Source: Cyanidioschyzon merolae (taxonomy: Eukaryota). Taken from it: a stretch of 64,000 nt of DNA. The DNA is taken from NCBI GenBank assembly GCA_000091205.1, contig AP006500.2, one strand, 5' to 3'. The notes under the pieces were generated by a model. It had not been told where the DNA came from. It did not search any database and worked only from the letters and a program-made list of their open reading frames with translations. A program made the translations under genes and the position numbers. Below are positions 1,651 to 61,348 of the stretch, in pieces; within the stretch, counting starts at the first letter, position 1; each line of letters starts with the position of its first letter.

Positions 1651-1983
1651 CGTGAACGCTTCCACGGACGCTGCGTGGTTCAGGAAGCGTCTTGCCCGAA
1701 TGATGGAGAAGGGAGCGTGCTCTGTCGATTGTGCGTACCGCCGCCACTGCCGCCGCCGCCGCCGTCGCCGTGGATGTTTCAGCAAAGGCCGCTGTCACTC
1801 CGCGATGGCATTTTTGTACAGATTTATACAGAAGCAATCCGGGGTACGGGTAAGCGCACGTTCTGATGCGTGCATTCGTGTTCGGGTCGCTGTGCCGCGG
1901 AATCAAACTTTGGAACTATACCAGAGCGTGATGCAGTTGGCGTGTCGAAAGATAGGGTGTGCTAGCTCGAAAGCTTAAGTATT

Positions 1984-2415
1984 TTGGAGATGGAGAACTT
2001 GCTCCGCCGGGCCAAGCTCTGGAACGTGCCTGAGGGTGACGAGTGGCGCCTCGAAACGTGTCCAACGTGCAACGGCAAGGGTTTGATTATTTGTCCGTGC
2101 TGCCACGGGCGGGGCAAGTGTCTCTCGCTTGTGTTGTTTGTGAATATGGATACGCCGTGTTTGCTGTGCTTCGGAAACCCAGAGGTGACGTGTGGCAACT
2201 GTGAAGGCAACGGTAAGTTCGTCGTGACTCCTGACGGCCGGTACTGGTGCAAGCCGCCCAAGTATCGACGGAAACCGCCTCCGGGTGTGTCGAGCTGGAA
2301 CTTGTTCGCGAATATCCGGTTTCCGACGCAGGAACTGCCGCCCGAAGTCGCTAACGCCATCCGAGGTTTGAAGTTCGACGTTTTCGGTCAGGTGATCAAG
2401 CGCACCAGTGAATAG
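1984..2415 (+). CDS. Small DnaJ-type (CR-type) zinc-finger protein with three CxxCxGxG repeats; BSD2-like.
   Basis: The translation contains CPTCNGKG, CPCCHGRG and CGNCEGNG, the canonical DnaJ cysteine-rich CxxCxGxG spacing, in a 143-aa ORF. Confidence 0.5.
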   Translation: MEMENLLRRAKLWNVPEGDEWRLETCPTCNGKGLIICPCCHGRGKCLSLVLFVNMDTPCLLCFGNPEVTCGNCEGNGKFVVTPDGRYWCKPPKYRRKPPPGVSSWNLFANIRFPTQELPPEVANAIRGLKFDVFGQVIKRTSE

Positions 2416-7377: not shown

Positions 7378-7775
7378 GCTCCCAAACGGAATCAGTTTAT
7401 AGTGTTATGGACACGATGTAGACACCTCGGAATAAGTTATATTTTTGGACTTCACTGCTCCGAACGGAATCAGTGTGTTGTATCATGGATACCATCTAGA
7501 CACCTCGGAATAAGTTATATTTTTGGACTTCACTGCTCCGAACGGAATCAGTGTGTTGTATCATGGATACCATCTAGACACCTCGGAATAAGTTATATTT
7601 TTGGACTTCACTGCTCCGAACGGAATCAGTATGTTGTATCATGGATACCATCTAGACACCTCGGAATAAGTTATATTTTTGGACTTCACTGCTCCGAACG
7701 GAATCAGTGTGTTGTTTCATGGATACCATGTAGAAACCTCTAAATACGTAATACTTCTCGACTTCACTGCTCCAA
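7378..7775. repeat. Tandem array of about 5 copies with a 78-bp period.
   Basis: The sequence cctcggaataagttatatttttggacttcactgctccgaacggaatcagtgtgttgtatcatggataccatctagaca recurs at 7425, 7503, 7581 and 7659 (period 78), with degenerate units at both edges. Confidence 0.9.
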
Positions 7776-23019: not shown

Positions 23020-23229
23020 TAATCAATAGGAGACTCTTTGACGCCTTGCGTCTGAAGCGCTATGCGTGCTTTGCGTGCAGGGCGTCACGAAGCATGCATC
23101 TGCATGCGATGCGTTTCGCGCGTTGCTGGCGCGTTTGCGCTTGCCGCGAAAACGATCGATTGCTGCGGAGGCGCGCGTTCTGGAGTCTCCTGGGTTGATT
23201 ATCCTAGCGTTTTAACTTACATGTATTCC

Positions 23230-25660
23230 ACTGCGAGGTGCATGTAATCAAAAGCGTTTTCGCGGTTTATTACGGATGCTTTCGAAGTAGGTTCATTTGA
23301 AGGAAGAAATACACTATGAGAAAGGTGTGAACATGGACTTTGGGGATCCTGGAGGGCCTTCATCTCCGGGTTCCGGAAAAATATGAATAAACAGTTTCGA
23401 GCCCAGAGGAACGAAAGGTGACGAAGAAGCGAAGGGGGCAGGTCAAACGTCAAGAGCTTCGGGAGAAACGACACTAATACCAGATTGTAATGAAATCATA
23501 TCTTCGAGGCCATATTTGGGACGCGTACGAGCCCAAAATGCGAGAGGCTATCAGAAAGCGTGCCGATTCGTGTTCGAGCAGTTTTCGCTACGTTTTCCTA
23601 GGACTGATGCATTTAGTAAGGAAGACGTATCGCGACGCGAAGGATATCAAAACATTCGAGGTTCCGGAAGAATTATTCAACAGGACCTTTATTCGGCACG
23701 TGATGAATGGCGCAAGGGAAGCGTCGAGGAGGAATGAGCGAGTGTATGACCTCCACGAGAATCACGCTGAATACCGCTTCAACGGTACTCGATACAGGGT
23801 TGACATGCGTATTTACGAATACAGAGCGATAGAGTACCTCCCGAACCTAAAGAATCGTATGATCGTGAACCTCAAACGTTTCATGATACGCTCCATCTTT
23901 ACGCTCTACCCGGGCCTATCTCGCAAATGAATAGAGAGCATCATCAATGGGATGACAAACGATCGCCAGCATGAACAGGAGATCGAATTCGTCGACGAAA
24001 GGACATAGCACAGGAGTACGAATGAAGCTTCTGTAATGCGTGCGGCTATTCAAGAGCGCCGTGCGGTCTTGGGGCTGATCAATCAAGCAGAAAAGGTATC
24101 AGATATAAGAAAAGATGAAGAAAGATGTCATCTCCTCATCCTACGCTATTTCGTGTTCCTGAACCGAGAACCCGAACGCAAGGCGGAGATGGAGCTGGGT
24201 GTGGGAAAAATGGAGAGTGGGAGAGACAGAAGGCTGTGCTGCTGGAGAAGCGCTTCAACGCTGTACCGTTGTGCACCATCAAGCCACATTTTGTGACTAT
24301 CGATTCCGGCGTTCGCTACGGCATCATGAAGGAGATCTGTCCGGAGTTCAATGTAAGGAAGACAGCGTTCACCAGTGAAAACCGGACAACGCACTGGAAG
24401 AATATCTTCGATTTCAAGCGTCTCAAAACAAACAAGGGGAAGAAATTCGCTCGGATGATCGAAACAGATGGGGTAGCCATGTGTGTACACTGTCGGCGAT
24501 TGAAGGCAGATCGTCCAGTTCCGTCCTCCGCTTCGTCCGTGACGAATTACGACGATGAGTAGGAGGCGGACCCAGCCACGCAGGAGGTAGAGGATACTGA
24601 CTTTGTCGTTGGCGCGGACCCTGGGAATACGAATATCATAACCATCGCAGTACCCAAGCGTGCGGAGGATGGTAACGATCGCAATTTATGCCAGAAAGAC
24701 ATACATCAGTTAAACCTCTCACGAGCGAGATATCACCGAGAGTCGGGAGTACTTAATGCGAGGGAAAAATGAGACATGAAATGCAGGAATGCAAGAGCAC
24801 CTTGAAGCTATGAACCAGATGACGAGCCGCGGAGCAGACTTTCAAGCTTTCAGGAATTCATGGAAGTTCGCGTTGCTCATTGGGATGCGCTGTGGAATGA
24901 GTATGCAAAGCCCTGGTGGGCTCGTTTGCGTATGAATCTATACGGTGGGAGGCAGCGGGCGTTCGCAAACTTTTTCAATCAGTTGAGCGCCTCGAATGAG
25001 GATGAAATTCAGAGGCTCGGTGCAGCGTACGGAGCAGGGCGCTGGAAGACCAAAAAGTGACTATGCTAGCACCAACGATGAGAACGTACAAGGAGTGTGC
25101 AAGGCGTTTCGTTACGATACCAATAGATGAGTTTCGAACATTTTATACACACCATGAACTGGGGTGTACACTCCAGAGAGTGGAGATGGAAAAGTTCCAG
25201 CGGAGCCATGAGGATATAAAAACGTACGGAGCGCTGACGGTAGAGCAAATGGAGAGGAGGGCGAGACTTCGAGGACTACTTGCATTAGTAAGTACAACCA
25301 ATGATGGCAAGAAACGTATGGAATTCGTGAACTGTGACTTTAATGCCGCTATCAATATAAGGAAATGTGCGGTGCTGGAGACGAGACCTCCAGAGTTGAC
25401 ATGGGAGAATTTTGTGGGGCAACCTCTCAAAGTGGAATTATATGAGAAAAAATTGGAATCAGTAGTATGCGGCCGGTCCAAAAAGACTGCAAGGCGTCTG
25501 CACGTTACTAAGAGACGTCTTGTCTAGGGCGGGTTTCTCGCCACTACTCTACACTTCTGGTCGCAACGTTTGTCTTTTGAAAGGCGTTTGTTGTCGGTGA
25601 TGGCGGTGTTGAGTACTAGAATTCCCCGTGTGAAAGCCAGGAGGCAGCTTTGTCAGGTTG
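23230..25660 (+). mobile_element. Fanzor/TnpB-like element, copy A. Its ORF is broken by frameshifts and stops; boundaries are approximate.
   Basis: ORF pieces 23490..23930, 24036..24296, 24125..24562, 24860..25060 and 25057..25527 align in order with the 622-aa ORF at 56757..58625. It encodes Ruv[20 protein letters not shown] near 24590-24650 and RuvC-III MEFVNCDFNAAINIRKCAV near 25320. About 120 nt after the stop codon are conserved with copy B. Confidence 0.7.
23490..25527 (+). pseudogene. Fanzor-like RuvC nuclease pseudogene with at least four frame disruptions.
   Basis: The homologous segments sit in three different frames and are separated by stop codons at 23930, 24562, about 24770 and 25060. 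Confidence 0.7.
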
Positions 25661-27358: not shown

Positions 27359-28786
27359 GGAAGCCGTATGAGCGTAGGCTCTATGACTTAAGTCTCAAGC
27401 TAAGGACACTGCGTAGCGCCACGTGACTCATGCCCGCTGAAATGCAAACGATGGAAAACGGGTTGTTTCGTGGCTGCGGGCAGCGACATCTCTAGTCGGC
27501 GCCAGCAAGAACAGAGCAGGTGGTGGGCTCTCTCTCTCTCTGGACGATGTCCGCAGCGGCGCTTTCGGCACCGTCATAAATGCAAACTGGTGGATCTTCA
27601 TCCGGAGGATTTGCATAAGATGCCAAGTTCCTCGATGGTAAGCCTGGTTGTGGCTTCCGGAACACTGGAGCTGGGAGCGGAATCGTGGGTACTGAAATCG
27701 ACGTCGGTAGCAATGGCGAGCTCGGGGAACGCCAGTCAAAGTGAGAGATCGGATGCCTCAGAAAAAGATCCATCAACGTGTTGAGAACGAAGCGCGGAAT
27801 ATTATCAAGCAGCTGCAAGATTGCTCTGCAGTACATGAATCAACAGTGGCGCTCGGTTCGACGTCCATAGTTACGGGAGGTTCCAAGCAATCATTTTCGT
27901 AGAAGAGACATTTTTGGGCAACCGCTGTGCACCTATGCGATGGAGCAATCTTGGCGCTCTGGAGCACACAGATGCTGCTGATGCTGCTCAAATGCTCGAA
28001 ACGTTCAGACTTCTTTTCACGTGCTCGCGCTGCGCTGGCTCCGACGTTTTCGGCCAATGTCTTTAGACCACGCCCTGACCGTTTTGAAGATCCCAGTTGG
28101 TATCTTGCACTGCACAGCAGTCATTCCAATCGATGCCTACATATCCTTCGATGCCCTTGGGACTGAATCCAAGCGTGTGAACGGACTCGCCAGGAGTCCT
28201 CGAAAATTCACCTAAATGTGCGTATTTATGTTCATGTCCATGCGATTGCCGCTCAAAGCTGCTGGCTCCAGAGCACCTGCGCGCCAAGGAGTCCCAAACT
28301 GGTCTCGCTTCCACTCACAAGCTGTGCTGTATGTCCGCTATAGGAGGCTACGCTGGATCTGCCGAGCAACGCTTCCCATGGTGAGTACTGTTGTGCAGGT
28401 GGTAGCGCTTGGAAACTCCATACGAGCAGAGGACCTCCATTCGCCGATTGTTGGAACCATTCGTTCACCCGCGGGCGTCTGTCGGACTCAGGTTTTGTAC
28501 ACCATGAGGGTACGCCAGCTCGTTGCTGGACACCCGCATACGGCGTGTGAGTATCTGCTCATCAACTGATCACAGGGATCCTAATCGCTCCGCTGGACGC
28601 CCGGATGAAAGCAGATCTTCCCGATTCGAACACCAGAGGCAATTTCTGTCTGTGTCGGACGGGATATGCTCGACTATGCATAGACTCGCCCGAAGGTATA
28701 TGAGACACGCGCGAGCTACCTCAATGATATGGATAGAGGCGCAGCGCTCAGCCGATCATCATATGCGAGCAAAAAAAGAATTCGAG

Positions 28787-29110
28787 CAGATTTCCAAGCA
28801 TGGAAGCCAACGCAAGACAAGAACAGATAAGAGCGATCTTTTTAGAGCAGTAATCAAGCACTAGCAGATTTCCAAGCATGGAAGCCAACGCAAGACAAGA
28901 ACAGATAAGAGCGATCTTTTTAGAGCAGTAATCAAGCACTAGCAGATTTCCAAGCATGGAAGCCAACGCAAGACAAGAACAGATAAGAGCGATCTTTTTA
29001 GAGCAGTAATCAAGCACTAGCAGATTTCCAAGCATGGAAGCCAACGCAAGACAAGAACAGATAAGAGCGATCTTTTTAGAGCAGTAATCAAGCACTAGCA
29101 GATTTCCAAC
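28787..29110. repeat. Tandem array of about 4 copies with a 78-bp period, unrelated in sequence to the array at 7.4 kb.
   Basis: cagatttccaagcatggaagccaacgcaagacaagaacagataagagcgatctttttagagcagtaatcaagcactag begins at 28787, 28865, 28943, 29021 and 29099. Confidence 0.9.
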
Positions 29111-29278
29111 CGTATGTTTTAAAGCAGAAAAAGTCAAGAGCGCCACGACGCCGTACATGCTCTCGCACGACCCAACCCCGAATCTGGATAAAGCCTCAGC
29201 CCCAAAGATCGTGCAAGTATTGGTACGGTGAGTGAAACGGAAACGTACTTAAACCGTGGAGGTTTGAGTATTAACCTA

Positions 29279-29850
29279 TGTGCAGACGCCTCCCAGCTTT
29301 TTTCGACCGGAAGCCAGTGGTCAGTTTTGGTTTATCCAGGCACCATACGAGCATCAGAGGCTGCCCCATAACATTAGATTGCCTAATTCCTTCAGCACTC
29401 GTCTTCAGCACCGAAAAATCGTGTGATATTGATGGCAATGTCGGAGTCTCGGATCACGAACTCCTTGTGCGCATTGCCGCTGGTTGAACGCATCAATGCG
29501 AGGATTGCTAGAACTCGCGCGCTCTGTGCGACTACAGTCTCGTTATCGCCCAGTGGGGCAAACACCATTTCTTGCCTGTCCGCCCGCTTCTTCTTCGTCT
29601 TCGGCACTAGCTCTTCATCGCTCGATGCTCGGCGAGAAGAGCGTTTTTCCTTATTTTTACCGGCATTCGGCGACGTTGACCCCTCCTGGATCCCCGACAT
29701 TCATGTCCATACTTTTCCCTTGGATTCTTCATTTCTTCAAACGGACACATTTCGAACACATCTGCTACAAGCCGCGAACATGCATTTGATAACACGCACC
29801 CGGATGCGGAACACCATTGAGGTGAACGACTTGAGTGAAAACGCTCACGC
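29279..29850 (-). mobile_element. Truncated 3'-terminal fragment of a Fanzor-like element (divergent subfamily).
   Basis: It starts with gtgcagacgcctcccagc, which matches the copy-B 3' tail at 56695. It then carries the reverse complement of the Fanzor C-terminal coding region (tattgatggcaatgtcggagtctcggatcac) and about 350 bp homologous to copy-B sequence near 56900-57250. Confidence 0.6.
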
Positions 29851-30033
29851 GGGACATCCGCCGAGGCGCTCTAGCCGACGCCCTCAGCGGTACGTCAAAG
29901 CCGTTCTTTCTCCGTGTTGCATCTGCACCAGCGGTGTGAGCGCTATCGGGAGTAGGCGCGGCAGGCACTCGGTGCACGATAGAATATATGGAACGACCAG
30001 TATATCCTAAAGGAAGTATGGGTCATGAAACAT

Positions 30034-30135
30034 GAAGTTAGGGTTCATCATGATGGACACTTGCTCGATTGCCATAATCCATCCCCCAAACTGGAATCCC
30101 TGCTCAATGGAAACGTTTTGTCGAACAAAAGCAAA
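30034..30135 (+). repeat. Dispersed repeat of about 100 bp; copy 1 of 2, with the second at 38004..38105.
   Basis: ataatccatcccccaaactggaatccctgctcaatggaaacgttttgtcgaacaaaa matches attatccatcccgcaaactggaatcccgtatcaacggaaacgttttgtcaaacaaaa at 38041. Confidence 0.6.
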
Positions 30136-33659: not shown

Positions 33660-36600
33660 CGTGCTTGATGACGCTTGGATCGGAGGAACCTGGAGAACAT
33701 GTTGTGTGGTTGCAGATGCCGCAAGGCGCTTCTGCGAAACGACCGATTCGGTTGCACCATGATCAAGGCGAAACGTTCGTGCGCTAACCTTGCAAATGGA
33801 TGAGCAAGCAGGTGCGGCTCTCGGGTGTCTACGTCCGCTCTGCGATTCGAATGCAGACTCAGCACGCTGCATTCATGGTAGTATGGATAGAGCCTGAGCA
33901 GAGTGCTTTCGCGACGTCTGTTGGTCGTGGAGTTCCTGCAGAGGCAGCTCGCTGCTGGCCCCGAATAGCTTTGAACCATGCTTGAGGAATGCACACTGCG
34001 TTCCGAGATGCGTATGAGCGTCTGGCAAGCGACGCTGACGTGTGTCTCGGCTGCGGTGGAACCGTGTCGACACTGCGGTGCACGTCGCTGTTCGCACATG
34101 GGCAAAGAGAGGGTGGATAACCTCGGCCTAGCATGCGTTCTCAATGACACAATAGACTACCGTGAATGGACCTTGTTGTTGCCCCTGGTGTCGTTGTGAG
34201 TGCTGCAGCATTCGAATGATGCGCTGTTCGCGAAAACGCGATGCCATTCGCATCCGGTAATGTCGCAGTCGATATGCCGGTGAGTGCATTTGTTTCCGTT
34301 CGAAAGCGGACGCGGTGGCGCCAGCGCCTTAGTGCGACGCCCGGCGCTCTCCGCAGGCAAACCGCAAGCAGTGTTCCCGCTGTCGCATCTGACGCTTGAC
34401 TGCTGATCGACGCTGCCTAGTTTTCAGTTCAGTGCGCGGGAACTCTTGGTGCATGGATTTGAACGATGATGACATGCCTCGGAATTCGACACCGTATTGG
34501 ACGCTTCCGGAAACTACCACCGGTTCGGTCAACGAGCCTCGGAACGGCTACAGCCTCCTCGGGATCGCTGCACCTCGAGATGCTTCCAAACATACCTGAT
34601 AGAGGTTGCGCATATGTTCTGGGTGCGCGTTCAGATGCGCAGCCGAGCGAGTCTGCTGACTCATGAATGAAACGAAGTAGGTCATTCGTTTTCGATTTTC
34701 CCTGCTGAAGATGATACTCTCGTGATTGCTCAGATGCGTGGCATACGGCGGCAGCAGCAGCAGCAGCAGCAGCGTCGAGACCTCGTTCTCTAGACTTGTG
34801 TCCAATGAAAATGGAAAAATAAACTGTTTACTCGGTTCGTGTTTGTCGATTTTCTTTTGGAAATTTTATTCGGATGCTAAGCTTCGACACTGAAAGTGCT
34901 GTCATACGGGCTTGTGGATTCTCACAGAACGCCAGGATGCTCGGTCGTCGTTTCCGATTGGCTGCTTTGACCTGCTGCCGCTGGAATTCGATACGTCACT
35001 GGAATGCAGATGATTCGCGACAACCTCGAACTGTTCTTCGTCCAATAAACGATATCATTATTCGATGCAAGTGTACGAGCGTCCGCTCCTCGAATTTCCT
35101 TCCTTGTGGCATGCCCATATCCTGCGTTCTTCATGTGATCGATCTCTCTCTGATTCAACCCATATCATAGGCAGAATACTTCGCAATAATGGATTGATGC
35201 GAAACAACTCGGTTTCGATCCTTGATGACTTGTTCGCAAGCTCATGCCGAATGTTCACTGTACCTACCATCTTAAATATGCGATTTCGTTCCAAATGCAG
35301 ATGCTGCTGTATCTGGAGCCGTTGACGAAACGGGGCTCCACAACGCCAGCATACCTTTCGTGACACACGCCTCCGGTGGATCGTGTTTCTTTTGTTTGCG
35401 TAGATACTGGTCTTGGACTCGAGGTTTCGTCATCGCAACGATTGCTTGCAGTGGACCGTTCGATTTCTCTTTTTCCACAGCTGAGAGCGTAAATGGATCG
35501 AAAGTTCTCGTCTTCTACGTATCTGGATTGTATTTCCGGTACTTGTCCTATCCGGCGCATCATCCTGTTCGGTAAATCCTTTATTGAATGCAGCAGATTT
35601 CGCTTTCGCACATAGCGGACAGCAGACACATAGTGCGGATCACCCAGAAGAAGCCCTTGGTCTAAGGGTACAGCACCGAGCGTGGAAACGGAAAGGAGCA
35701 TCGAGGAGAGTCTTCTGCACCCGACAACGGTATTTACGGAGCGAGGAAGCAAGCGTTCGGGCCTCACGGCGGGCGGCGGCCACAGGAGCAGGATGAGGAG
35801 GTGCTGTTGACGTATACGAAACACACGACCACAATCGACTTTCATTGCTGTGACAGACCCCATCGAGGCTGTATTTAGAGAAGATCAACATGATCTGCGA
35901 GGCTTCGATTGCAACCATTGCTTGTGCATGAAATGTATCGACAAGAGCTGGATGCACTGAGATAGGGACATGAACGCTGCCATCAACATCCTTCGACTGC
36001 TGAGAATGGAACTAGAAGGACAGAGGACAACGGCGTGTTCACAAGTGGAGATAAGCGAGAGGCAAAGGCTGCGATCTGCTGGTGAACATTTACCGAGAGT
36101 TTAGGATCCACGCCCGAATCGCAGGGCCGGCTTCATTTCTACTCTGACATGGGCGTAGACTACATGCCAATAGCGCTGTCCGCTGGGCGTGGCGTGTTGA
36201 ACACCGCTACTCGCGAGCGATGAACAGATTCTCAACGGCAGTTTGCTTCACGTCATAGCAGACCAGCTACACGCACTATGGTTGCTGTTCCTTCAGCAGA
36301 GCAACAAGATTTATAACGAATGCAAACGATGCTTTCGAAAGACCGAGCGGATGCAAGATTCGTCAATCGATGACGATTCTGGTGCGTTATGCCGTCCTCC
36401 ATGGATTCATGGCTTTGGATCTTCTTCACAGCGTGATTTCCTGTCGCAACAGGCGGTCTCCGGAAAACATCATGATCGTCGTGTTCTGGATACACGCCTG
36501 AAACAGGTGCCATTGTCCTCGGGCAAGGCGACTGCGCTGCATGCATTCTCGAGGAAAATGGGTATCTTGCCCGCGTCTACTTCACGAGGAGCCACAACTT

Positions 36601-38003
36601 CTCCAATCGGACGCCGTTTATCGATTCCCTGGACGCAAGTTGCAGCGTTCTCACCTCCCCGGATTCGATACGCAGTGCAGCGCGAGACATCAGGTCTACC
36701 AGAGGCATCGTTTGACCCTAACGACCTCTTTCCCAGAGGGCACGCTGTTCGTCGCCGTCTGGTGTGCACTGCGAATTGGCATGCACGGAGTCCGTCAACT
36801 TGCCACGAATATGCCGAATGAGGAAGCCTGAATGAACACTGCCCCAGTGATAGGCTGCATCGTCTCATGGTTGATTCGGAGCAAGCGCCGCACGTGAGTT
36901 TGCTGGAGCACTGCATTCGAAACTTCGTAAACGGATGCGCGCGGCTCTGGTCCTAAGCGGGCTGCCATCGACGCATTCTTCGATGCACAGCGGGGACGCT
37001 TTGCATTCACAAAGCCACGAATGAGCACTCGTTCACGCAGCCAGGTTCCCACTGCACAAAAAGGCGTTCCTGCATCTCTCCGAGACCGCGCCTGTGTTTC
37101 GAGAAGAGTTTCCGAAGAGACTCTCCTTGCTTGTTTTGCTTTCGATGTATCCGTGAATTTAAAGCTGCAGGTTTCCCGCCATGCGCGCACAATTTATCCC
37201 GTGAACAGGTACGAGCATCTCTGTACTTGGTGGACCATCGAAGTATTCACCTAGCTATCCTTTCGGGCGCAAGTTCTTGCCAGCCCACGTTTTTCATGAC
37301 TCATGATCGGTGCGTTCAACCACATGCCCTGGTACGCCAACCTCGATTCCAGGAGATCCTGGATCGAAGCGTCACTATCGTCACACCATCACAGAGAGAA
37401 GCGCTGTGTACCGGCCCTGAACAGATTCAAACGCCATGAAGCATTCTGCGTCGAGAGCACAGAAACGAAATGCTACCTAGCAACGAGATCAGAATTTCTT
37501 TCCGTCTCTACGGTTGGCATTGAAAGGGGGAATGGTTTTCCGTATTTTCGAAAGTTTACATTTTTTAGGCAGAAGATCCAGCGAGCTGGACGGGTCTGCC
37601 AGGCCAGTGCTTCATGTGCCTCTGCTGGGACAGGTGCGGTGTCGAGACCTGAGCAACTCGTCCGCAACGCAGTTCTTTCCGGATTTCGGAGCTGGTAGAA
37701 TGTGTCTGGGCGCTGCCCTGATTGCGATAGTCTGCTAGAATATCGCTTCGCGCTGCCGCAGGAATCAGGTCCGGCTGCGCAGATTGCTGGCTCCCAGTAT
37801 GATCATGAATCCCAGTCCTGTGACTAGTGAACCACACCTCGATCCGACGCTCTCTGTTGTATGGTAAATATGCTCTGTCTTCATCTCACATCTGCAACGT
37901 CGCTGCAAGGACTATGGCAGGTGCAGCAAGGCGGGTATGCGGCGCACTATAGAACATACAACACGACCAGTAAATCCGAGATCAAGTCTAGGAAAATAAA
38001 CTT

Positions 38004-38105
38004 GAAGGTAAGGTGCAACATCACTGACGCTTTCTCGTTTACCATTATCCATCCCGCAAACTGGAATCCCGTATCAACGGAAACGTTTTGTCAAACAAAA
38101 CAATT
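38004..38105 (+). repeat. Dispersed repeat of about 100 bp; copy 2 of 2.
   Basis: Matches 30034..30135 in the same orientation. Confidence 0.6.
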
Positions 38106-41863: not shown

Positions 41864-42898
41864 TCACCGTAGGATCGTTTCGATCATGGACTGCGCTTGG
41901 TCATAGTATCCGCCACCAAACAGGGCGCCATGATTCAGAATATGGTAAAGGTTATAAATCACACGACGTTTCTCGCGGTAACCTTTTGGCAAGGGCCAGC
42001 TAGCGTCATAGGCCTGGTAAAATGCACGAGGCAGGCGGCCAAAGAGCTCAGTCATGGCGAGATCCACTTCGCGGTCCCCATAGTAAGTTGCGGGATCAAA
42101 GATGACGACCTCATTCTGGTTCCGCAACGTCGCTACGTTGCCGGTCCACAGATCGCCATGCACCAGGGAAGGCGTCACCTGGTGCTGAATTTCATGCTCC
42201 TGTAGGACCGAGTGCACTCGTTGCAGAAGCGCATCTTCGTTACGCAAACGTCCGCCTTGGCGAGACCGTGCCAGCTTGAGCTGATAGCGAAGGCGATTCT
42301 CCACGAAAAAGTCGGCCCAGCTGTGCATCCAGGTATTGAGCTGGGGCGTCGAACCAATAGTGTTTCCGCGGTGCCACCCGTACCCGCGGCCACCGGAAGA
42401 GCAACGATGCATCGCCGCAAGCTTCTCGCCAAAGTCTCGATAGACAGCCTCGTTACCGATTCCGCCTAGCTCGAGGTATTCGAGAACGATGAACGACCGT
42501 TCTGCGGTGTTTCCATAGCAGATCGGCGCTGGTACCCGAACCGTCTCGGACTCCGCCATAGCCTGAATGCCTTCAAACTCAGCACTGAACATGGATACCG
42601 CCTGTGGCTCACTAAGTTTCACAAAGTAGCGCTCGGTAGAGTCGTTCCGATTCAAAAGCTCCGCGCTCGTCGACCAGCCGCTACCCAGTGCACTTGCGCT
42701 GCGAAGTTCGCCCTGGAAGCTTCGCTGCAACGCTGCAGCGACACTTTCAGAAACCGCTCGAGAGAGCTCGCTGGTATACAGTGATCCCATGGGCCAGTTA
42801 GCGTGCGGTTGGCTGTACTGGAGCAGCGTCCTTTTTCGACAGCGTACTAGTGACACACAAACAGAACTCACTACACCGACACAGCGAATGCCTTCCAA
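41864..42898 (-). CDS. FN3K: Fructosamine/ketosamine-3-kinase family protein. An alternative start lies at 42790.
   Basis: YFVKLSEP...FEGIQAM near the N-terminus, the catalytic LVHGDLWTGNVA motif and the C-terminal LYHILNHGALFGG match FN3K family hallmarks. Confidence 0.8.
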   Translation of the reverse strand: MEGIRCVGVVSSVCVSLVRCRKRTLLQYSQPHANWPMGSLYTSELSRAVSESVAAALQRSFQGELRSASALGSGWSTSAELLNRNDSTERYFVKLSEPQAVSMFSAEFEGIQAMAESETVRVPAPICYGNTAERSFIVLEYLELGGIGNEAVYRDFGEKLAAMHRCSSGGRGYGWHRGNTIGSTPQLNTWMHSWADFFVENRLRYQLKLARSRQGGRLRNEDALLQRVHSVLQEHEIQHQVTPSLVHGDLWTGNVATLRNQNEVVIFDPATYYGDREVDLAMTELFGRLPRAFYQAYDASWPLPKGYREKRRVIYNLYHILNHGALFGGGYYDQAQSMIETILR

Positions 42899-42959
42899 GC
42901 GCCAAACGCTGTATAGGCGGTGTTTAGGAGTGGCGAGCGGTGCGCCGCCCGCAACTGAC

Positions 42960-43540
42960 TCTGCGTCTGCCCAACAACGTGCAGACGCCTCCTAGTCTTT
43001 CTAGACCGGCCACCTATGAATGGGTTCAACTTCTTCCGGTATTATTCGACCTTGAGAGGTTCCTTCACAGGGTAAGTTCGCGTCAGCTCTGCGGGTCTCT
43101 TCTGCATCACCGCATATCTCCTTCTATTGATAGCAACGTGAAGGCCTCGATGCACAAACTCCATGCATACATCACCGCTGGTTGAATTCATCAGTGCAAG
43201 GATTCCTCGACGGCGTGCCCTGTGTGCCACTACAGTCTCGGTATCGCCCGTCGGGCAAACATCTTTTCCTGACCATCTCGCCTCTTCTTGTTCCTCGTAT
43301 CACTTGCTCTTCTTCGCGCGAAGAATCGGCGAGGAGTTTTTCCGTTTTTTTTCCGGCAGCCGGCGATGCCAGCTCTCTAGGATCCCCAATTTGCGTATTG
43401 AAATTTTTCCCTTACATTTTTTCTTCTTCGAATGAGCGCACGTCGAACGCATCTGCTATGAACCACGAAAGAGCATTGAATGTCAAACACCAGGAAGTAA
43501 AACACATTCGAGGTGAAAGACGTGAACAGGTTGCATAGAG
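42960..43540 (-). mobile_element. Truncated 3'-terminal fragment of a Fanzor-like element, same subfamily as 29279..29850.
   Basis: gtgcagacgcctcctagtctttctagaccggccacc at 42979 matches the copy-B tail. The minus-strand ORF 43042..43230 translates MEFVHRGLHVAINRRRYAVMQKRPAELTRT, a degenerate RuvC-III region (compare MEFVNRDFNAAVNIRRCAVLETRPPELNTRE in copy B). About 350 bp that follow are collinear with 29476..29850. Confidence 0.6.
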
Positions 43541-51433: not shown

Positions 51434-52614
51434 GTTCTTCTTGCGAACACCAGCGAACATGCTAAAGTTTCGGTTCAGTTCCACTATGATCAGCATAAGC
51501 CTGCGCGGGCTCTTTCCTGCGACTGCTTTCTTCCCGATTCCTTTATTTCCAGCTTAAAGTGCATCGGTCTCTCATGTGCTGCCAGCACCGTTGTCAGCAG
51601 TTCAAGGTTCTGGATCCTGGCGTTGGAGTCTCGATGACGCTATTGCCAGCTGTTGTCGACGCATTTCATGCACGGGCAAAAGTTGCGATCGATGCAGTAC
51701 GTACGATTTTTCATCTCCACCGTATAAAGCCTCGGTGCGCCGTTCGCAGCCGCTACACTTGACAATCGTCAGGTGTTGCCGTATTTCCACTGCACATCCT
51801 CTTGCTCAGCGGGCCGCATGTGGCGCGTGAACGCTTACTTCATCGCTTGGCACATGTCGTTGACGGGTCCAGAAGGCCCTCCTTGATACCTCCCTGGCTT
51901 TTCCCGCCATATGCCGCATGCGACGATCACGGGCTTCCTCTGGGCGTTCCGGTGGCGAGTACTTTGTTCGCAACACAGCCACGCGCACGCTGTACGATTC
52001 GGTAGAAGAGTTTCGGAAGGCGATTTCGTCCGTGCGAGAACGAGACCGAGGTAGAAAGTCGAGGTCAGACAACGTGACGAGATCATTCGATCCGGCTGCG
52101 CTTCGAGCTTTCAGCGGCGATACGCGACTTCCAATGGACATGATCCCTGCGATGACTGAATTCTGAGTGCGACACTCCTTTCCATGGAAGCAGAAGCGCC
52201 GAAAAGCCTCGGATGGCGTATCCTGTAAACGGTACCATGCTCATGTGGAATCCGGTTTGATCGATAGCGAAGAAAAACGAAGGATTCGTTTTTCGAACGG
52301 AATCGATTATTATATGACGTGATGATTTCAGCGGACATTCGATGTGAGTTTCTGGAGCAGTCGTCAAGCGACCACGTCGAGGTTTCTTTTCGTCAGTATA
52401 GGAGCGTGAATCGCTGCGCCTGCGACTTGCCCAGATCTTAGCGATGAAAAACTTGAAGCCTATTTGATTTGCGCATGTCACCTGTGAGGACGGAGACGCG
52501 TGGAGGATAACGCGTTCTGGTAAAATAATGAGGCAAGTTATTTTGCGAGTCCTTGTTCACGAGCGATGCAGGTTATCTCGATTCGTACGACGGTACGAGT
52601 TCTAGCGGCAAGGC

Positions 52615-53000
52615 GTCGAAGAAGCCTCCCCGAAAATACGACCGAGAATGCTGAAACCACGCATGTATCCGTTCGTCTTTATTGATGTTTTTCGATTCCC
52701 GAAGTTGTCCATTTGAAACCAAGGATTCCTCGAACTCGTACCCTCTCTGTGCCACTACAGTCTCATTGTCGCTCCGTCAGACAAACACATTTTCTCGGCA
52801 ATCTCCTCCCCTCTTCTTCTTCTTTCCCGTCACTTGCTCTTCTTGGCTCGACGGTCGCCCAGAAGAATATTATTTTCGATTTTTCCTGCAGCCGGCCGCA
52901 CAGGGCCTCCAGGATCACTTACTTTTATGTCCATAATTTTCCCTTGGATTTTTTATCTCTTCAATTGAATACATTCTTTAGACCCTTAGGTGAGAACCTT
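52615..53000 (-). mobile_element. Fanzor-like 3' fragment abutting a Tc1/mariner transposase remnant (composite decayed transposon).
   Basis: aaggattcctcgaactcgtaccctctctgtgccactacagtctcattgtcgctccgtcag and the sequence after it are collinear with the fragments at 29.5 kb and 43.2 kb and with copy B near 56920. Confidence 0.5.
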
Positions 53001-53048
53001 TCCGGGACGAGAAGAACTTGCAGAAGAAAGCCGACATGGGCGTCGGAG

Positions 53049-56584: not shown

Positions 56585-58700
56585 GAATAACCTCGGACAA
56601 ATCGGGTACACGAACGTCTTACAAGATAAACGCTGCTGCGGCCAGAAGTGTACAGTAGTGGCGAGAAACGCGCCCTAGACAAGACCTCTCCAAGTGACGT
56701 GCAGACGCCTCCCAGACTTTTTGGACCGGCCACCAACTACTGATTCCATTTTTTTCTCATATTAGTCCACTTTGAGAGGTTCTCCCACAAAATTCTCTCG
56801 TGTTCAGCTCTGGAGGTCTCGTCTCCAACACCGCACATCTCCTTATATTGACAGCGGCATTAAAGTCTCTGTTCACGAATTCCATACGTTTCTTGCCATC
56901 ATTGGTTGTACTTACTAATGCAAGTATTCCTCGAACTTTCGCTCCCCTTTCCATTCGCTCTACCGTCAGCGCCCCGTACGTTTTCATATCCTCAGGGATC
57001 CGCTGGCACTTTTCCATCTCCACTCTCTGAAGTGTATATCCCAACTCATGGTGTTTATAGAATGTTCGAAACTTATCTTTTGGTATCGTAACGAAACGTC
57101 GTGCCCACTCCTTGTACGTTCTTGTCGTTGGGGCTGGGGTACACCCTTTTTGGGTCACCCAGCGCCCTGCTCCGTACGCTACTACCAGCCTGTGACTCTT
57201 GTCGTCCTCCAAGGCGCTCAACTCATTAAAGAACTTGGCGAATGCACGCTGCTTCCCACTGTATAGATTCATACGCAGACGAGCCCAGCGGGGCTTTGAA
57301 TATTCTTTCCACATCTCCTCGTCATGAGCAGCCTGGGTTTCCATGAATTCCCGAAAGGCTCGAAAAACCGCCCCGCGGTTTGTCACTTTGCTGAACTCCT
57401 CACGGATATCGAACTCCGGGCTGATTTCTTTCAATGGGCCATGAAGGACGCTGGAGTTGATAGTCACAAAATGTGACTTGACGTTGCATAACGGAACGAC
57501 ATTGAAGCGCTTCCCCATTAGGGCAGCCTTCCGTCTCTCCCACTCCTCATTTTCTTCCTCATCCCGCATCATCTCCGCCTTGCGTTTGAGTTCTCGGTCC
57601 AAAAACACGAAATACGGCAGGATGAGGCGAAAGTATCTTTCCTTATATTTTTTCAACTCTGATATCTTTTCTGCTGGATTAGCCAGCCCAAGTACAAGAC
57701 GATCCTCTTGAAAAAGCGCACGGATTACAGAAGCTTCACTCGTATTCTCGTTTGACACTTTCTTGTCGACAAATTCGATCTCATCTTCATGCTGGCCATT
57801 GTTTTTGATACCATTGATAATCGCCCATATTGCTTTGCGAGAGAAGACCGGGTACAGCGCAAACACGGCGCGTATCATGAAACGTTCGAGGTTCATCGTC
57901 GAATGGTTCTTCAGGTTCGTGATGTACTTCATCGCCCCGTATGTGCAAATACGCGAGTCACCCTTGTATCGAGTACCCTCGAGGCTGTAAAACGGACGTT
58001 TTTCGTGAAGAGCGTGAACCCGCTCATTTTCCCTGCGCGTTTCCCCTGTGCCAAACATCAGCTGGCGAGTAGAGGTCTTGTCGAAAAACTCGTCTGGAAT
58101 CTCGACTGTTTCCATGTGCGTCACGTTGCGATACATCTCCCTCGCCAAATGCATCAGTCCTGACGACGCCTTAACAATGCTCTTGGAGCACGAGTCGACA
58201 CGGTTGCGGATGGCGTCTCGCAACTTTTCCTTGTACGAATCCTTCACACGTTTAAGAAGACAGGCTTTCGCCACCATCTCGTCGTACTGTTGCCTTTCGT
58301 ACAGCTTGTTCGTCTTCTCTTGTACCTCTGGACTCTGTACTGATTGTCGTCTTTTTCTGGCAGCTGGCGACACTGCGCCTCCAGGATCCTCTACTTCCTT
58401 TTCTATACGTTTCCTTTTTGTATTTGTTTTTTTTTTCTTGAAAAAGAGCGCATTTTTGAACGCTTCTTCTACAAACCAGCAAAAATAACTTGACCCCAGT
58501 CTGTTGAGGGTTAAAACGCAATCGAACTGAAAACGATGCTTTGCTACGACTACAACGCAAACACATCTTTTTCGGTGGAGCAAAACTCTATATATCAGGA
58601 TCGCGTTTCCCTTCCACAGCGACATTTACGTCGTGCCTCGTGAGTGCCAGTTCTCGAGGTGCGCGTATCGACCGCGCCATGGATAAAAGAATAGAAACGA
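56585..58700 (-). mobile_element. Fanzor/TnpB-like element, copy B, carrying a 622-aa ORF. The 5' boundary is uncertain.
   Basis: About 90% nucleotide identity to copy A across the C-terminal coding region and the roughly 170 nt downstream. The 3' homology to copy A fades at about 56585. Confidence 0.75.
56757..58625 (-). CDS. Fanzor-like (eukaryotic TnpB/OMEGA-family) RuvC-fold protein. It lacks the RuvC-I segment and so is probably nuclease-dead.
   Basis: C-terminal KKRMEFVNRDFNAAVNIRRCAVLE matches the D-x-N-A-A-x-N-I RuvC-III signature of TnpB/Fanzor. It is collinear with copy A except for a deletion of about 385 nt that spans the GADPG RuvC-I motif. Confidence 0.7.
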   Translation of the reverse strand: MSLWKGNAILIYRVLLHRKRCVCVVVVAKHRFQFDCVLTLNRLGSSYFCWFVEEAFKNALFFKKKKTNTKRKRIEKEVEDPGGAVSPAARKRRQSVQSPEVQEKTNKLYERQQYDEMVAKACLLKRVKDSYKEKLRDAIRNRVDSCSKSIVKASSGLMHLAREMYRNVTHMETVEIPDEFFDKTSTRQLMFGTGETRRENERVHALHEKRPFYSLEGTRYKGDSRICTYGAMKYITNLKNHSTMNLERFMIRAVFALYPVFSRKAIWAIINGIKNNGQHEDEIEFVDKKVSNENTSEASVIRALFQEDRLVLGLANPAEKISELKKYKERYFRLILPYFVFLDRELKRKAEMMRDEEENEEWERRKAALMGKRFNVVPLCNVKSHFVTINSSVLHGPLKEISPEFDIREEFSKVTNRGAVFRAFREFMETQAAHDEEMWKEYSKPRWARLRMNLYSGKQRAFAKFFNELSALEDDKSHRLVVAYGAGRWVTQKGCTPAPTTRTYKEWARRFVTIPKDKFRTFYKHHELGYTLQRVEMEKCQRIPEDMKTYGALTVERMERGAKVRGILALVSTTNDGKKRMEFVNRDFNAAVNIRRCAVLETRPPELNTREFCGRTSQSGLI

Positions 58701-59218
58701 GTCATGAAGTAGCAGCTCGATAACAATTTCTTTCCCCTCTACGGTAGGCGTTAGATGGGGAAAGTTTCTAAGCTTTCGAAAGTTCACCTTAGAGGCGGAA
58801 AAGCGCGCGAGCGGGACGAATTTCCCAGTCTCATGCTTCATGCTCCCTCCAGTGCCCAGCGCTGTAGCGAGATATAAGCAGCTTGTCCGAAACGCAGTTT
58901 ATTCTTGGACTCTGAACGGGTAGCCTGCGTCTGGTCGTCGCGCTGGTCCCAGTGGACTCCTAGCGTATCGCTTCGCGCAGCCGCAGCCGGTAGGTCTGTC
59001 CGCGCCGTTTCCAGGTTCCCAGAATGATAACGAATCCCGACCCCGTATCAGATGAACCCTGCCTCGATCCGGCACCCTCTGTGGTATGGTAAAGCCTTTC
59101 TGTCTCCGTGCTGCATCCGTTCCAGCGGTAGAAGCGCCACGGCGAGTGCTCAAAGCAGGTAATCGGCGCATGATAGAACATTCGAAACGACCGGTGCACC
59201 CGAAAGAATACACCAGTA

Positions 59219-61348
59219 ATGGAACTTGGAGGTAGTTGCCTTATGATGGACAATTACATGAATCCTAATACCCGTCCCGCAATCTGGTATCCCTTATCAA
59301 TGAAGACGTTTCTTCATCGAAAAAAGATCAGCGGTACTGCTTCGAGCAGCAGTGCACGGCGGCGGCGCCGCCGAATGCCTGCGATGCACTCGGATATCTT
59401 GCTCAGGACGATAGCCTGGCCTCAAGACAGAACAGGAAAACAGTGCACTAGACAGTGCTGTTTTGTTTTGTGCTGTGTTTTGGACGAGCCCCTCAGGGAA
59501 CAGCGAGGGAGTTGCCCGCACGCCATGGGTAGTCCGCAGCTGGGGCACGCCTGCGCACCACACCAGGGCCTTCATAAGGGAACTCGGCAGCGAACCACGG
59601 AAAAGAGGCACATTGCTCCTGCCCAATTAGGACAGTTTGACACTGAGAGCGAGGTCGCTTTCTCGGGATATGGTAATGCTGCAGTGGTCAACCGTGGAAC
59701 CCACCCGCGAAGTTTTTCAGCGCGTACCAGCTTCGTCTGGTTTACTGAGCCCTGTGCTTTGACCAAAGTGCACGGCAAACACCCGTGCATAGGCATCCAG
59801 GAGAGTTCCTTCAGCGCTCCTGTTCTCTATCCGATCCATGGAGCTTCACGGATTCTTGTTCAGAGGCATTCCCCGCATCCGGTAAAGCGTGCGCTCCCGC
59901 GCTCGCGCTCTCGCTCCTGGAAAGCCTCGCTGTTCGAGCGTTTCTTCGGCCGGAAACGGTCATCGCGCCAAACTTGGCCCCACTTGATCAAAGAACAAGC
60001 ACCAACGGGGACAGTACCAGCTTCAGGTGCCTCATTCGCACAGAATGGAGCGGACACCACAGTTATTCCGCGAGCACGCGCTCGACATTCCCGTCACGAA
60101 CCGACAAGGGTAGCGTCGCCGACTCCCAGTAGTCGTGACATCACAGATGTTGACCGAAGCAACGCGGAAACTTGCATCGCGATACGCCATGTACACAAGG
60201 TTTTTCCCGACTCACATGCACCAGGAGGACAATTTTACGCCCTTTGTGATATTTTGCTCGATATCGAGGACGGCTCGCTAGTGGCTTTGGTTGGCCCCAG
60301 CGGTAGCGGCAAGTCGACACTGCTTCGTTGTATTGCGGGGCTTGAGAATCCGACCTCGGGGCGTATCTTCCTCCATGGGCGAGATACCGAGGAGATGAGT
60401 GTTCAGGAACGACGGATTGGCTTTGTATTCCAGCATTATGCATTGTGGAAGCACATGACCGTGTGGAAGAACATTGCATTTGGATTGGAGATTCGCAAGA
60501 CGCCTCGCTCAGAAATAGAACGGCGCGTCTTGGAGCTTCTGAAGCTCATGGGTCTTGAGGGACTCGGTGACCGCTACCCACATCAACTGAGCGGCGGACA
60601 GCGCCAACGGGTTGCGCTGGCTCGAGCCCTAGCTCCCGAACCGCGCGTCCTCCTCCTCGATGAGCCGTTTGGTGCGTTGGATACGCGAGTGCGGCGGAGT
60701 CTGCGTGCATGGCTTCGGCGCTTGCACGATGAGGTCGGCACAACGACGATCTTCGTGACGCATGATCAACAGGAGGCTTTAGAGATAGCCAGCTCCGTGG
60801 TGGTCATGAACAAGGGCCAGATCGAGCAGGTCGGCACACCGCTTGAGATCTATGAGCATCCAGCGTCGCCGTTTGTCATGAGCTTCATGGGCGATGTGAG
60901 CGTCGTGAGTCGTGATGCGCTCCCCGCAGAGCAGGCAAACGGGCGCACCTTCACGAATGCTACTCGAGCGCGCTCCGTGGAGACATCCAAAAAAGACTCC
61001 ATTTGGTCGGACCCCGAGCGTCCGCCGACAATACCGCGCGAGTCTGAGACAACGACCAATGTCCGTAAGAGCGATAACGCCGCCCAGTACTTGATGCTGC
61101 GTCCTCATGACGTTCACTTGCATCGCAGCCCCGATAGCACCACGGCTCCGGCTCGTGTTGTCGACGTGTTTTTCTTAGGTTGGAGTGTGCGTGTTGATGT
61201 CGAGCTCCAAGACGGCCAAATTCTTCAATCCATCATGCTCACAACGCGCTACAAAGAGCTGGGCGATTTGTATCCCGGCGACCTCGTGCATGTTAAGTTC
61301 TTCGGGGAACGCTCCTTCGAGGTGGACGAGGCCGAGTATAACATCTGA
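59219..61348 (+). CDS. ABC transporter ATP-binding protein of the CysA (sulfate/molybdate importer) type, with a C-terminal TOBE domain and a 200-300 aa N-terminal extension.
   Basis: Walker [11 protein letters not shown]-loop FVFQHYALW, signature [15 protein letters not shown], Walker [13 protein letters not shown]-loop FVTHDQ, then a TOBE-like C-terminal beta domain. The first roughly 300 aa are low-complexity with no in-frame Met close to the domain. Confidence 0.8.

What the first reader, a model, noticed from the sequence alone, without database searches (positions are those of the whole stretch)
29279..29850. Three 3'-truncated Fanzor remnants, all minus-strand, two ending at the identical nucleotide
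Blocks at 29279-29850, 42960-43540 and about 52615-53000 are mutually collinear. Each carries the reverse complement of the Fanzor C-terminus plus about 350 bp of more diverged Fanzor coding sequence, and each is homologous to copy B near 56695-57250. The 29-kb and 43-kb copies both begin exactly at gtgcagacgcc, whereas A and B continue about 90 bp further. This suggests an older subfamily with a different 3' terminus, or recurrent breakage at this site. All five Fanzor-related sequences in 64 kb mark this as a transposon-enriched region for this family.
Basis: seen in the sequence. Interest (0 to 1): 0.5.

Follow-up and report, generated by a model that had tools for sequence, protein, structure and literature searches.

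The report
ORF-less "ghost" copies of Fanzor transposon
The three blocks are old, decayed copies of a roughly 610-bp internally deleted version of CMe-1A, the known Fanzor1 transposon of the red alga Cyanidioschyzon merolae, and they are not broken 3' fragments, so the finding is an ordinary repeat family with one modestly new detail.

Summary
The window is C. merolae 10D chromosome 18. Copies A and B belong to CMe-1A, the Fanzor1 family described by Bao & Jurka in 2013.

- They are copies of a short subfamily that keeps the element's 5' ~240 bp and its 3' ~330 bp. These are joined by one shared ~2-kb in-frame deletion.
- The "350 bp of diverged coding sequence" is the element's 5' end, not sequence next to the C-terminus.

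None of the three ends at GTGCAGACGCC:
- R29 runs 58 nt further, to about 29222. Its subfamily-specific tail is shared with about 15 independent copies from other Cyanidioschyzon genomes.
- R43 runs 106 nt further, to 42869, with the ordinary CMe-1A tail. It looks like a mosaic of the short and full-length types.
- R52 (52720-53020) is cut at both ends and never reaches the motif.

The motif is simply the last block the two tail types share.

Short copies differ from their consensus equally at all three codon positions, which indicates neutral decay. Full-length copies show a strong third-position excess.

The closest known analogue is the ORF-less "ghost" loci of the Spizellomyces Fanzor (Saito et al. 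2023). A guide-RNA role for the retained 3' part is inferred, not shown. Interest is low to moderate.

The parts
29222..29838 (-). R29: a complete ~610-bp short-form ("ghost") copy. It has the 5' end (29838-29580), the deletion junction (about 29580-29523), the Fanzor C-terminal remnant with a degenerate RuvC-III motif, the GGCGTCTGCAC motif (29290-29280) and the subfamily-specific 58-nt tail (29279-29222).
   Evidence: The short-form profile built only from metagenome copies matches positions 10-613 to 29830-29222, E 1e-123. The canonical profile matches 538-773 and 2819-3071. The tail matches the alternative-tail consensus (2 of 1000 shuffles reach the score) but not the canonical tail (542 of 1000). 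Both ORFs are broken.
29869..30130 (-). A TE-N2-like fragment (about the first 250 bp of that element) lying directly upstream of R29 in the same orientation, as in long-form CMe-1A.
   Evidence: BLAST to B 59311-59063 (70%, E 3e-24) and to 37838-38100 (71%). Alignment. Profile positions 4-143. The 5' limit is approximate.
42869..43525 (-). R43: a short-form copy with the same deletion junction but the canonical CMe-1A 3' tail (42975-42869). It is a mosaic of short-type and canonical-type sequence.
   Evidence: The canonical profile matches 539-766 to 43521-43284 and 2830-3164 to 43210-42869, E 1e-49. The short profile matches 10-559. The tail matches the canonical tail (0 of 1000 shuffles reach the score). 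Diagnostic sites are short-type in the 5' two-thirds and mixed or canonical towards the 3' end.
52720..53020 (-). R52: a fragment of a short-form copy, truncated at both ends. It contains the diagnostic deletion junction but lacks the RuvC-III region, the motif and any tail.
   Evidence: The short profile matches positions 90-337 to 52975-52720, E 2e-51. The canonical profile matches 582-769 to 53020-52810. There is no homology in 52615-52720.
23209..25607 (+). Copy A: a core-only CMe-1A Fanzor1 copy without the TE-N2 module. It is a pseudogene with stops and frameshifts, but all three RuvC motifs are still recognisable.
   Evidence: Canonical profile positions 541-1928 and 2106-3165. The three-frame translation shows [16 protein letters not shown] and NCDFNAAINIRK. 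Mismatches to the consensus show a third-position excess of 29/30/58.
56595..59325 (-). Copy B: a long-form CMe-1A copy (TE-N2 module, linker and core). An in-frame internal deletion removes the IETDGV and RuvC-I region, leaving a 622-aa open but catalytically incomplete ORF (56757-58625).
   Evidence: Canonical profile positions 8-1703 and 2369-3164. ORF. BLAST against A shows a gap corresponding to A 24352-24820. The 5' limit is approximate.
37472..38100 (-). A solo TE-N2-like element with no Fanzor core after it. It is homologous to the 5' module of B and to the fragment next to R29.
   Evidence: BLAST of 37478-38088 to 58710-59311, 67%, E 4e-44. Profile positions 4-396. This fits the statement in Bao & Jurka 2013 that the 5' 635 bp of CMe-1A equals a separate element, TE-N2_CMe.

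Best explanation
R29, R43 and R52 are three old insertions of a non-autonomous, internally deleted subfamily of CMe-1A, the Fanzor1 transposon of Cyanidioschyzon merolae.

SHOWN
- One ancestral in-frame deletion of about 2 kb joined roughly the first 60 codons of Fanzor (the start codon and a Lys/Arg-rich stretch) to roughly the last 100 codons.
- Every copy therefore keeps the element's 5' end and its 3' end, which includes the RuvC-III-coding remnant, the GGCGTCTGCAC block around the stop region and a 3' tail.
- The family consensus still reads as a 159-codon ORF, but individual copies decay neutrally.
- Most members carry a different ~60-nt 3' tail that begins right after GGCGTCTGCAC. R43 instead carries the ordinary tail and is a mosaic with canonical-type sequence at its 3' end.
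- The apparent common end at GTGCAGACGCC arises because this is the last block that the two tail types share.

INFERRED
- The short copies were spread in trans by the still unknown machinery that moves CMe-1A, because they keep only the element's ends.
- The retained 3' part lies where Fanzor1 guide RNAs (omegaRNAs) are encoded, between the end of the ORF and the right end of the element. The copies may therefore have supplied guide-RNA-like transcripts, as the Spizellomyces ghost loci do.
For: IDENTITY
- The 1529-aa ORF at 18430-23019 is an exact match to CYME_CMR449C of C. merolae 10D.
- Bao & Jurka 2013 (PMC3627910) describe CMe-1A: about 150 copies, about 80% identical to the consensus, about 3 kb, no terminal inverted repeats (TIRs), target-site duplications (TSDs) not determined, and a 5' 635 bp equal to TE-N2_CMe.
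- A profile of the family plus distant relatives hits Fanzor1 structures 9cf0 (4e-20), 8gkh (3.5e-11) and 9cer (2e-5), with the IETDGV, DPGR, DEFRT and NRDxNAAxN motifs aligned.

SHARED DELETION
- The canonical profile matches each short copy in two pieces, about 537-773 and about 2817-3070. This holds in the window, in 6 copies found in locus flanks and in 8 further copies.
- A profile built only from metagenome copies matches R29 end to end.

TAILS
- See for the two tail types and the significance tests.

DECAY
- Mismatches of short copies to their consensus fall 470/493/522 over codon positions (p = 0.25), and the copies carry stops.
- As a control, full-length copies give 689/519/1338 (p = 2.5e-96) and 960/875/1267 (p = 1e-18).

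OTHER
- The 17-copy consensus holds the 159-codon ORF.
- R43 is a mosaic by diagnostic sites.
- The canonical tail ends in a terminal hairpin that exists in two mutually compensatory sequence versions (mean z -2.5 over 32 copies).
- Analogue: the ghost Spu-1 elements of Saito et al. 2023 (PMC10432273).
Against: - No transposase, TIRs or TSDs were found, so mobilisation in trans is inferred only from copy number, dispersed locations and unrelated flanks.
- No RNA data were available.
- Whole-tail folding of the alternative tail is no better than shuffled sequence (mean z -0.3). Only one small hairpin just after the motif has modest support (4 of 300 shuffles reach the observed value). A second candidate hairpin has none (163 of 300).
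- The hairpins H1 and H2 of the canonical tail pair in 82% of cells but show no significant covariation.
- The origin of the alternative tail is unresolved. A few ORF clusters and locus L095 carry it on elements that extend upstream of the short-form junction, so it is not exclusive to the short form.
- No comparison with the Repbase consensus sequences was possible.
Confidence: 0.85

Rival explanations
1. One reading: the blocks are 3'-truncated Fanzor remnants produced by recurrent breakage at, or an older terminus at, GTGCAGACGCC.
For: The 11-mer is present at the apparent edge of both R29 and R43. Plain BLAST similarity of R29 to A and B stops there. Canonical-profile matches of all alternative-tail copies stop at positions 3057-3071.
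Against: R29 continues for 58 nt with a tail shared by about 15 independent copies. R43 continues for 106 nt with the canonical tail. R52 lacks the site. The defining lesion is internal, not terminal.
Confidence: 0.04
2. The three blocks arose by three independent internal deletions of full-length copies in place, or by local segmental duplication within this region.
For: DNA transposon copies often suffer internal deletions, and copy B in this window carries its own different internal deletion. All three blocks lie on the same strand within 24 kb.
Against: The same junction occurs in 17 copies, including copies from other samples and genomes. The flanks are unrelated. The three copies are only about 70% identical to each other, yet each is 76-83% identical to the subfamily consensus.
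Confidence: 0.04
3. The short form is a protein-coding gene family that encodes a ~160-aa mini-protein, made of the Fanzor N-terminal basic stretch fused to the C-terminal RuvC-III region, and this protein is kept by selection.
For: The 17-copy consensus is open for 159 codons from the Fanzor start codon. Some copies elsewhere keep ORFs of 152-216 aa.
Against: Substitutions are spread evenly over codon positions, both in copies found by DNA and in copies found through their ORFs. All 9 copies found by DNA are broken. The long-ORF copies were found through their ORFs, which is an ascertainment bias. A lone RuvC-III segment cannot form a nuclease site.
Confidence: 0.04

Closest known systems
CMe-1A (Fanzor1 element) and TE-N2_CMe of Cyanidioschyzon merolae (Bao & Jurka 2013, Mob DNA 4:12)
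   Same: Same organism. A ~3-kb element that encodes a Fanzor1 protein. Copies are about 80% identical to the consensus. No TIRs or TSDs are detectable. The 5' ~600 bp also occurs as a separate repeat (B 5' module, 37472-38100 and the fragment next to R29). Coding capacity has been kept over a long period, seen here as a third-position excess.
   Different: That paper, as far as I could read it, does not describe the ~610-bp internally deleted subfamily or its alternative 3' tail. Whether Repbase holds it under another name, for example a TE-N1-type entry, could not be checked.
Ghost Spu-1 elements of Spizellomyces punctatus (Saito et al. 2023, Nature 620:660)
   Same: Short ORF-less loci (about 550 nt there, about 610 bp here). 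They keep both ends of a Fanzor1 element, are present in many copies, and have a 3' guide-RNA-region variant that differs from that of the full-length element.
   Different: Spu-1 has 30-nt inverted repeats and a conserved CA next to the left end, and its ghost omegaRNAs were shown to be expressed and active with SpuFz1. Here there are no inverted repeats and no RNA or activity data. The short form is visibly derived from the ORF by an in-frame deletion, and it retains about 100 C-terminal codons.
Non-autonomous internal-deletion derivatives of DNA transposons (for example Ds from Ac, and MITE-like elements)
   Same: Both ends are kept, the middle is lost, the derivative is amplified as a family of its own, and copies decay neutrally.
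   Different: There are no TIRs or TSDs, so it is not a MITE in the strict sense. The mobilising enzyme is unknown.

Membership tests
Fanzor1 / TnpB-like RNA-guided nuclease (protein family), applied to the parent copies A and B | Sequence homology to characterised Fanzor1 proteins across the RuvC domain | tested here: met
   Profile A2 (the family plus distant representatives) hits Parasitella Fz1 9cf0 (E 4e-20), SpuFz1 8gkh (3.5e-11) and GtFz1 9cer (2e-5). The family-only profile and the single sequence gave no hit.
Fanzor1 / TnpB-like RNA-guided nuclease (protein family), applied to the parent copies A and B | Split RuvC catalytic triad: D in DPG, E in DEFRTS and D in RDxNAAxNI | tested here: met
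   The family consensus and copy A show GADPGNTN, (V/I)DEFRT and NRDFNAAINI. Copy A is otherwise a pseudogene, and B lacks RuvC-I through a deletion.
Fanzor1 / TnpB-like RNA-guided nuclease (protein family), applied to R29, R43 and R52 themselves | An intact RuvC domain | tested here: not met
   Only the RuvC-III region survives. It reads IRDSDIAINI in R29 and HRGLHVAINR in R43, and it is absent in R52. RuvC-I and RuvC-II are deleted. These blocks are derivatives of a Fanzor element, not Fanzor genes.
Fanzor1 fold | A predicted structure that matches Fanzor1 or TnpB | tested here: inconclusive
   The AlphaFold2 model built on a shallow alignment had a mean pLDDT of 35. No fold search was attempted.
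CMe-1A / TE-N2_CMe repeat families (Repbase; Bao & Jurka 2013) | Host is C. merolae; a ~3-kb Fanzor1-encoding repeat with many diverged copies; the 5' ~635 bp is identical to a separate element; no TIRs | tested here: met
   The organism is established by an exact protein match. More than 400 related stretches were found in hot-spring metagenomes. B's 5' module matches the solo copy at 37472-38100. No TIRs or TSDs were seen.
CMe-1A / TE-N2_CMe repeat families (Repbase; Bao & Jurka 2013) | Direct alignment to the Repbase consensus sequences | not testable with these tools
   Repbase is not available here.
Ghost (ORF-less) Fanzor loci in the sense of Saito et al. 2023 | Both element ends retained, nuclease ORF missing, multiple dispersed copies | tested here: met
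   There are 17 independent copies with 5' positions about 537-773 and 3' positions about 2817 to the end. About 20 short-form ORF clusters are in the protein collection.
Ghost (ORF-less) Fanzor loci in the sense of Saito et al. 2023 | An expressed omegaRNA that works with the Fanzor protein | not testable with these tools
   There are no RNA-seq or biochemical data. Structure support is weak for the alternative tail. It is good only for the terminal hairpin of the canonical tail.
MITE | Terminal inverted repeats and target-site duplications | tested here: not met
   Neither is visible at R29, R43, A or B.

The most novel reading that the evidence does not exclude
The short form is a red-algal counterpart of the Spizellomyces ghost loci. 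In this reading it is an ORF-less element whose retained 3' region, with its alternative tail, is transcribed into a variant omegaRNA. Full-length CMe-1A Fanzor1 would use this RNA in trans, so the dozens of short copies would widen the set of genomic sites the nuclease can target.
Probability: 0.2. Interest if true: 0.5.

Novelty: new member of a known kind. Interest (0 to 1): 0.3.

Why it matters
- The work corrects the annotation of three repeats. It shows that CMe-1A has a distinct internally deleted subfamily, conserved between C. merolae 10D and hot-spring metagenome relatives, that switches to a different 3' tail exactly after a conserved block.
- If the retained 3' part encodes a guide RNA, C. 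merolae would be a second, genetically tractable system for studying ORF-less Fanzor guide loci.
- The contrast between neutral decay of short copies and protein-level constraint on full-length copies gives independent support to the view that the Fanzor protein matters for the spread of the family.
- None of this would surprise a transposon specialist.

Tried and rejected
1. Pfam on the 622-aa ORF of B and on fragments of A gave nothing useful. The local Pfam copy gave no hit for P0001 either. The precomputed hit was only DUF8286, and weak.
2. PDB sequence searches with P0001 alone and with the close-family profile found nothing. Only the profile widened with distant representatives worked.
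3. The AlphaFold2 model was too poor to use (pLDDT 35), so no fold search was run.
4. RNAalifold on the canonical tail found only a 5-pair long-range helix with no covariation. On the alternative tail it found no structure at all.
5. I suspected that the TE-N2 module was a long palindrome, because my profile matched both strands. Self reverse-complement alignments score no better than shuffles. The two-strand hits are an artefact of inverted TE-N2 copies in my training alignment.
6. I suspected that the alternative tail is the canonical tail with a deletion. The similarity is not significant (201 of 1000 shuffles reach the score), so I dropped the claim.
7. The idea that TE-N2 continues downstream of R29, which would indicate insertion into a TE-N2 copy, found no similarity.
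8. My first 5' boundary for TE-N2 was too far inside. Homology runs at least 30 nt further upstream, and at least two different 5' modules exist. I did not resolve the 5' termini.
9. The 2024 paper on C. merolae dispersed repeats (PMC11050394) does not mention Fanzor or these families.

Full report
**Source and family**

The 1529-aa ORF at 18430-23019 (minus strand) is identical to CYME_CMR449C of Cyanidioschyzon merolae strain 10D, on a 1.25-Mb record. The window is therefore red-algal nuclear DNA.

Self-BLAST shows two long related copies and the three short blocks of the finding:
- A on the plus strand, about 23.2-25.6 kb.
- B on the minus strand, about 56.6-59.3 kb.

A translates, through several stops and frameshifts, to a protein with the motifs [22 protein letters not shown] and NCDFNAAINIRK.

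A composite of A finds 51 close relatives, all from metagenomes. A whole-library profile search finds 1470 proteins.

A profile built from this family plus distant representatives hits the solved Fanzor1 proteins of Parasitella (9cf0, E 4e-20), Spizellomyces (8gkh, 3.5e-11) and Guillardia (9cer, 2e-5), with the catalytic motifs aligned. Narrower searches and an AlphaFold model failed.

Bao & Jurka 2013 already describe this family as CMe-1A:
- about 150 copies, each about 80% identical to the consensus;
- about 3 kb long, with no terminal inverted repeats (TIRs) and target-site duplications (TSDs) not determined;
- a 5' 635 bp that equals a separate element, TE-N2_CMe.

**Profiles**

I fetched 80 related loci from hot-spring metagenomes. 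They are 75-82% identical to A and B at the DNA level. From 25 of them I built a nucleotide profile in which the real element spans positions about 3-3167. Its matches in the window are:

| Copy | Profile positions | Window coordinates | Comment |
|---|---|---|---|
| A | 541-1928 and 2106-3165 | 23209-25607 | core only |
| B | 8-1703 and 2369-3164 | 59286-56595 | own in-frame deletion removes IETDGV and RuvC-I; a 622-aa ORF stays open |
| R43 | 539-766 and 2830-3164 | 43521-43284 and 43210-42869 | |
| R29 | 538-773 and 2819-3071 | 29831-29580 and 29523-29273 | plus a TE-N2 piece upstream |
| R52 | 582-769 only | 53020-52810 | |
| solo TE-N2-like copy | 4-396 | 38067-37472 | |

**What the three blocks are**

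Each block consists of the element's 5' end joined to its 3' end.

The same two-piece pattern occurs elsewhere:
- six further copies in the flanks of the metagenome loci;
- eight more copies fetched through their ORF clusters.

A profile made only from the six metagenome copies matches the window as follows:
- R29 end to end, positions 10-613 to 29830-29222, E 1e-123;
- R43 over positions 10-559;
- R52 over positions 90-337 only.

The three blocks are therefore members of one subfamily founded by a single ~2-kb deletion. They are not independent breakage products or local duplicates. Their flanks are unrelated, and they are only about 70% identical to each other.

**The motif and the 3' ends**

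GGCGTCTGCAC encodes RRLH about eight codons before the Fanzor stop codon, and it is among the best-conserved blocks of the 3' region.

Canonical copies:
- They continue for about 100 nt after the motif (A to 25607, B to 56595).
- They end in a terminal hairpin that exists in two mutually compensatory versions, CGUCGUUCGA-CUU-UCGAACGGCG and AACGUUUUUC-UUUU-GAAAGACGUU. Across 32 copies the mean minimum free energy is -8.8 kcal/mol and the mean z-score is -2.5.
- Two upstream hairpins can form (82% of cells paired, against 42-61% when the partners are slid), but they show no significant covariation.

Short-form copies:
- All but R43 switch, right after the motif, to a different ~60-nt tail with the consensus ...GGGTATnnnTACCC CTCCAYGGTCGTGAAACGTTTTTCGTTTCACTGA....
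- R29's tail (29279-29222) matches that consensus (2 of 1000 shuffles reach the score) and does not match the canonical tail (542 of 1000).
- R43's tail matches the canonical tail (0 of 1000).
- The two tail types show no significant similarity to each other (201 of 1000).

Neither R29 nor R43 therefore ends at the motif. The motif is the last block the two tail types share.

Diagnostic sites show that R43 is short-type over its 5' two-thirds. It becomes mixed or canonical-type towards the 3' end, which makes it a mosaic.

The alternative tail is not exclusive to the short form. Locus L095 and a few ORF clusters carry it on elements that extend upstream of the junction.

Structure support for the alternative tail is weak:
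- Whole-tail folding is no better than shuffled sequence.
- One small hairpin after the motif, whose stem differs in sequence between copies, has modest support (4 of 300 shuffles reach the observed value).
- A second candidate hairpin has none.

**Coding or not**

The 17-copy consensus reads as an in-frame 159-codon ORF. It runs from the Fanzor start codon (MDMEVGDPGG...), through the junction, to a stop inside the alternative tail.

- All nine copies found by DNA are broken.
- Mismatches to the consensus fall evenly on the three codon positions (470/493/522, p = 0.25; divergence 17-25%).
- Full-length copies, used as a control, show a strong third-position excess (689/519/1338, p = 2.5e-96, and 960/875/1267, p = 1e-18).

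The short copies therefore decay neutrally. The full-length family diversified under selection on the protein, as Bao & Jurka had argued.

**Mechanism**

Shown: one deletion founder, family-wide spread to unrelated sites in several genomes, a tail switch at the motif, and neutral decay.

Inferred: mobilisation in trans by the unknown machinery that moves CMe-1A. No TIRs, TSDs or transposase were seen.

Also inferred is a possible guide-RNA role for the retained 3' part. [quoted passage not shown]

The closest precedent is the 134 ORF-less "ghost" Spu-1 loci of Spizellomyces. They are about 550 nt long, keep both ends, and carry a variant omegaRNA that works with SpuFz1.

**Other claims of the finding**

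- Five of the six related pieces lie on the minus strand. This is not significant (two-sided binomial p about 0.22).
- About 7.5 kb, or 12% of the window, is CMe-1A or TE-N2 related. By my arithmetic from the published copy numbers, at most about 3% is expected genome-wide. Enrichment is therefore plausible, but it was not measured.

**Verdict**

The object is a new subfamily of a known transposon family, of a kind that has a published analogue. Interest is low to moderate.

Noticed in passing
window 28785-29109: A perfect tandem array (78-bp unit, 4.2 copies, 100% identical) lies about 110 bp beyond R29's true 3' end. A second array with a 78-bp period but an unrelated unit is at 7385-7773.
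   Followed up: no
window 56757-58625 (copy B): B keeps a 622-aa open reading frame although an in-frame deletion (profile positions 1703-2369) removes the IETDGV and RuvC-I motifs. No Fanzor-related copy in the window encodes a complete nuclease.
   Followed up: partly
loci L002-L081 and P0001; profile positions about 1870-2150: Just upstream of RuvC-I, full-length copies carry a variable number of ~33-aa tandem repeats ([23 protein letters not shown]). P0001 has four. BLAST depth triples in this stretch.
   Followed up: no
window 38075-38100, 59300-59325 and 30105-30130 (5' ends of the TE-N2-like modules): The 5' end of the TE-N2 module folds into a short hairpin whose stem sequence differs between copies: GTTTTG/CAAAAC in the solo copy and ATGAAGA/TCTTCAT in B. 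This was seen by eye only.
   Followed up: no
loci L001, L003, L020, L037, L056, L066 compared with L015, L023, L044, L063, L075: Long-form copies start with at least two unrelated 5' modules (CAAGCCTGCATCCGCAGACTG... and TGGATCCCAGATTGCGGGATGG...). TE-N2-like pieces also occur inverted, directly upstream of Fanzor cores. The 5' architecture of the family is modular and remains unresolved.
   Followed up: partly
L024 5043-5654; L095 343-1577: L024 holds two short-form 3' halves arranged head to head. L095 holds an inverted pair made of a canonical 3' fragment and an alternative-tail 3' fragment. These could be nested insertions or recombination products.
   Followed up: no
window 42869-42898: The 3' tail of R43 abuts, on the same strand, the 5' end of a fructosamine-kinase gene (ORF 41864-42898; the Pfam domain starts at residue 55). 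R43 therefore sits in that gene's upstream region.
   Followed up: no
window 35636-35951 and 51646-51951: A pair of inverted sequences, about 66% identical and about 320 nt long, that is unrelated to the Fanzor family.
   Followed up: no
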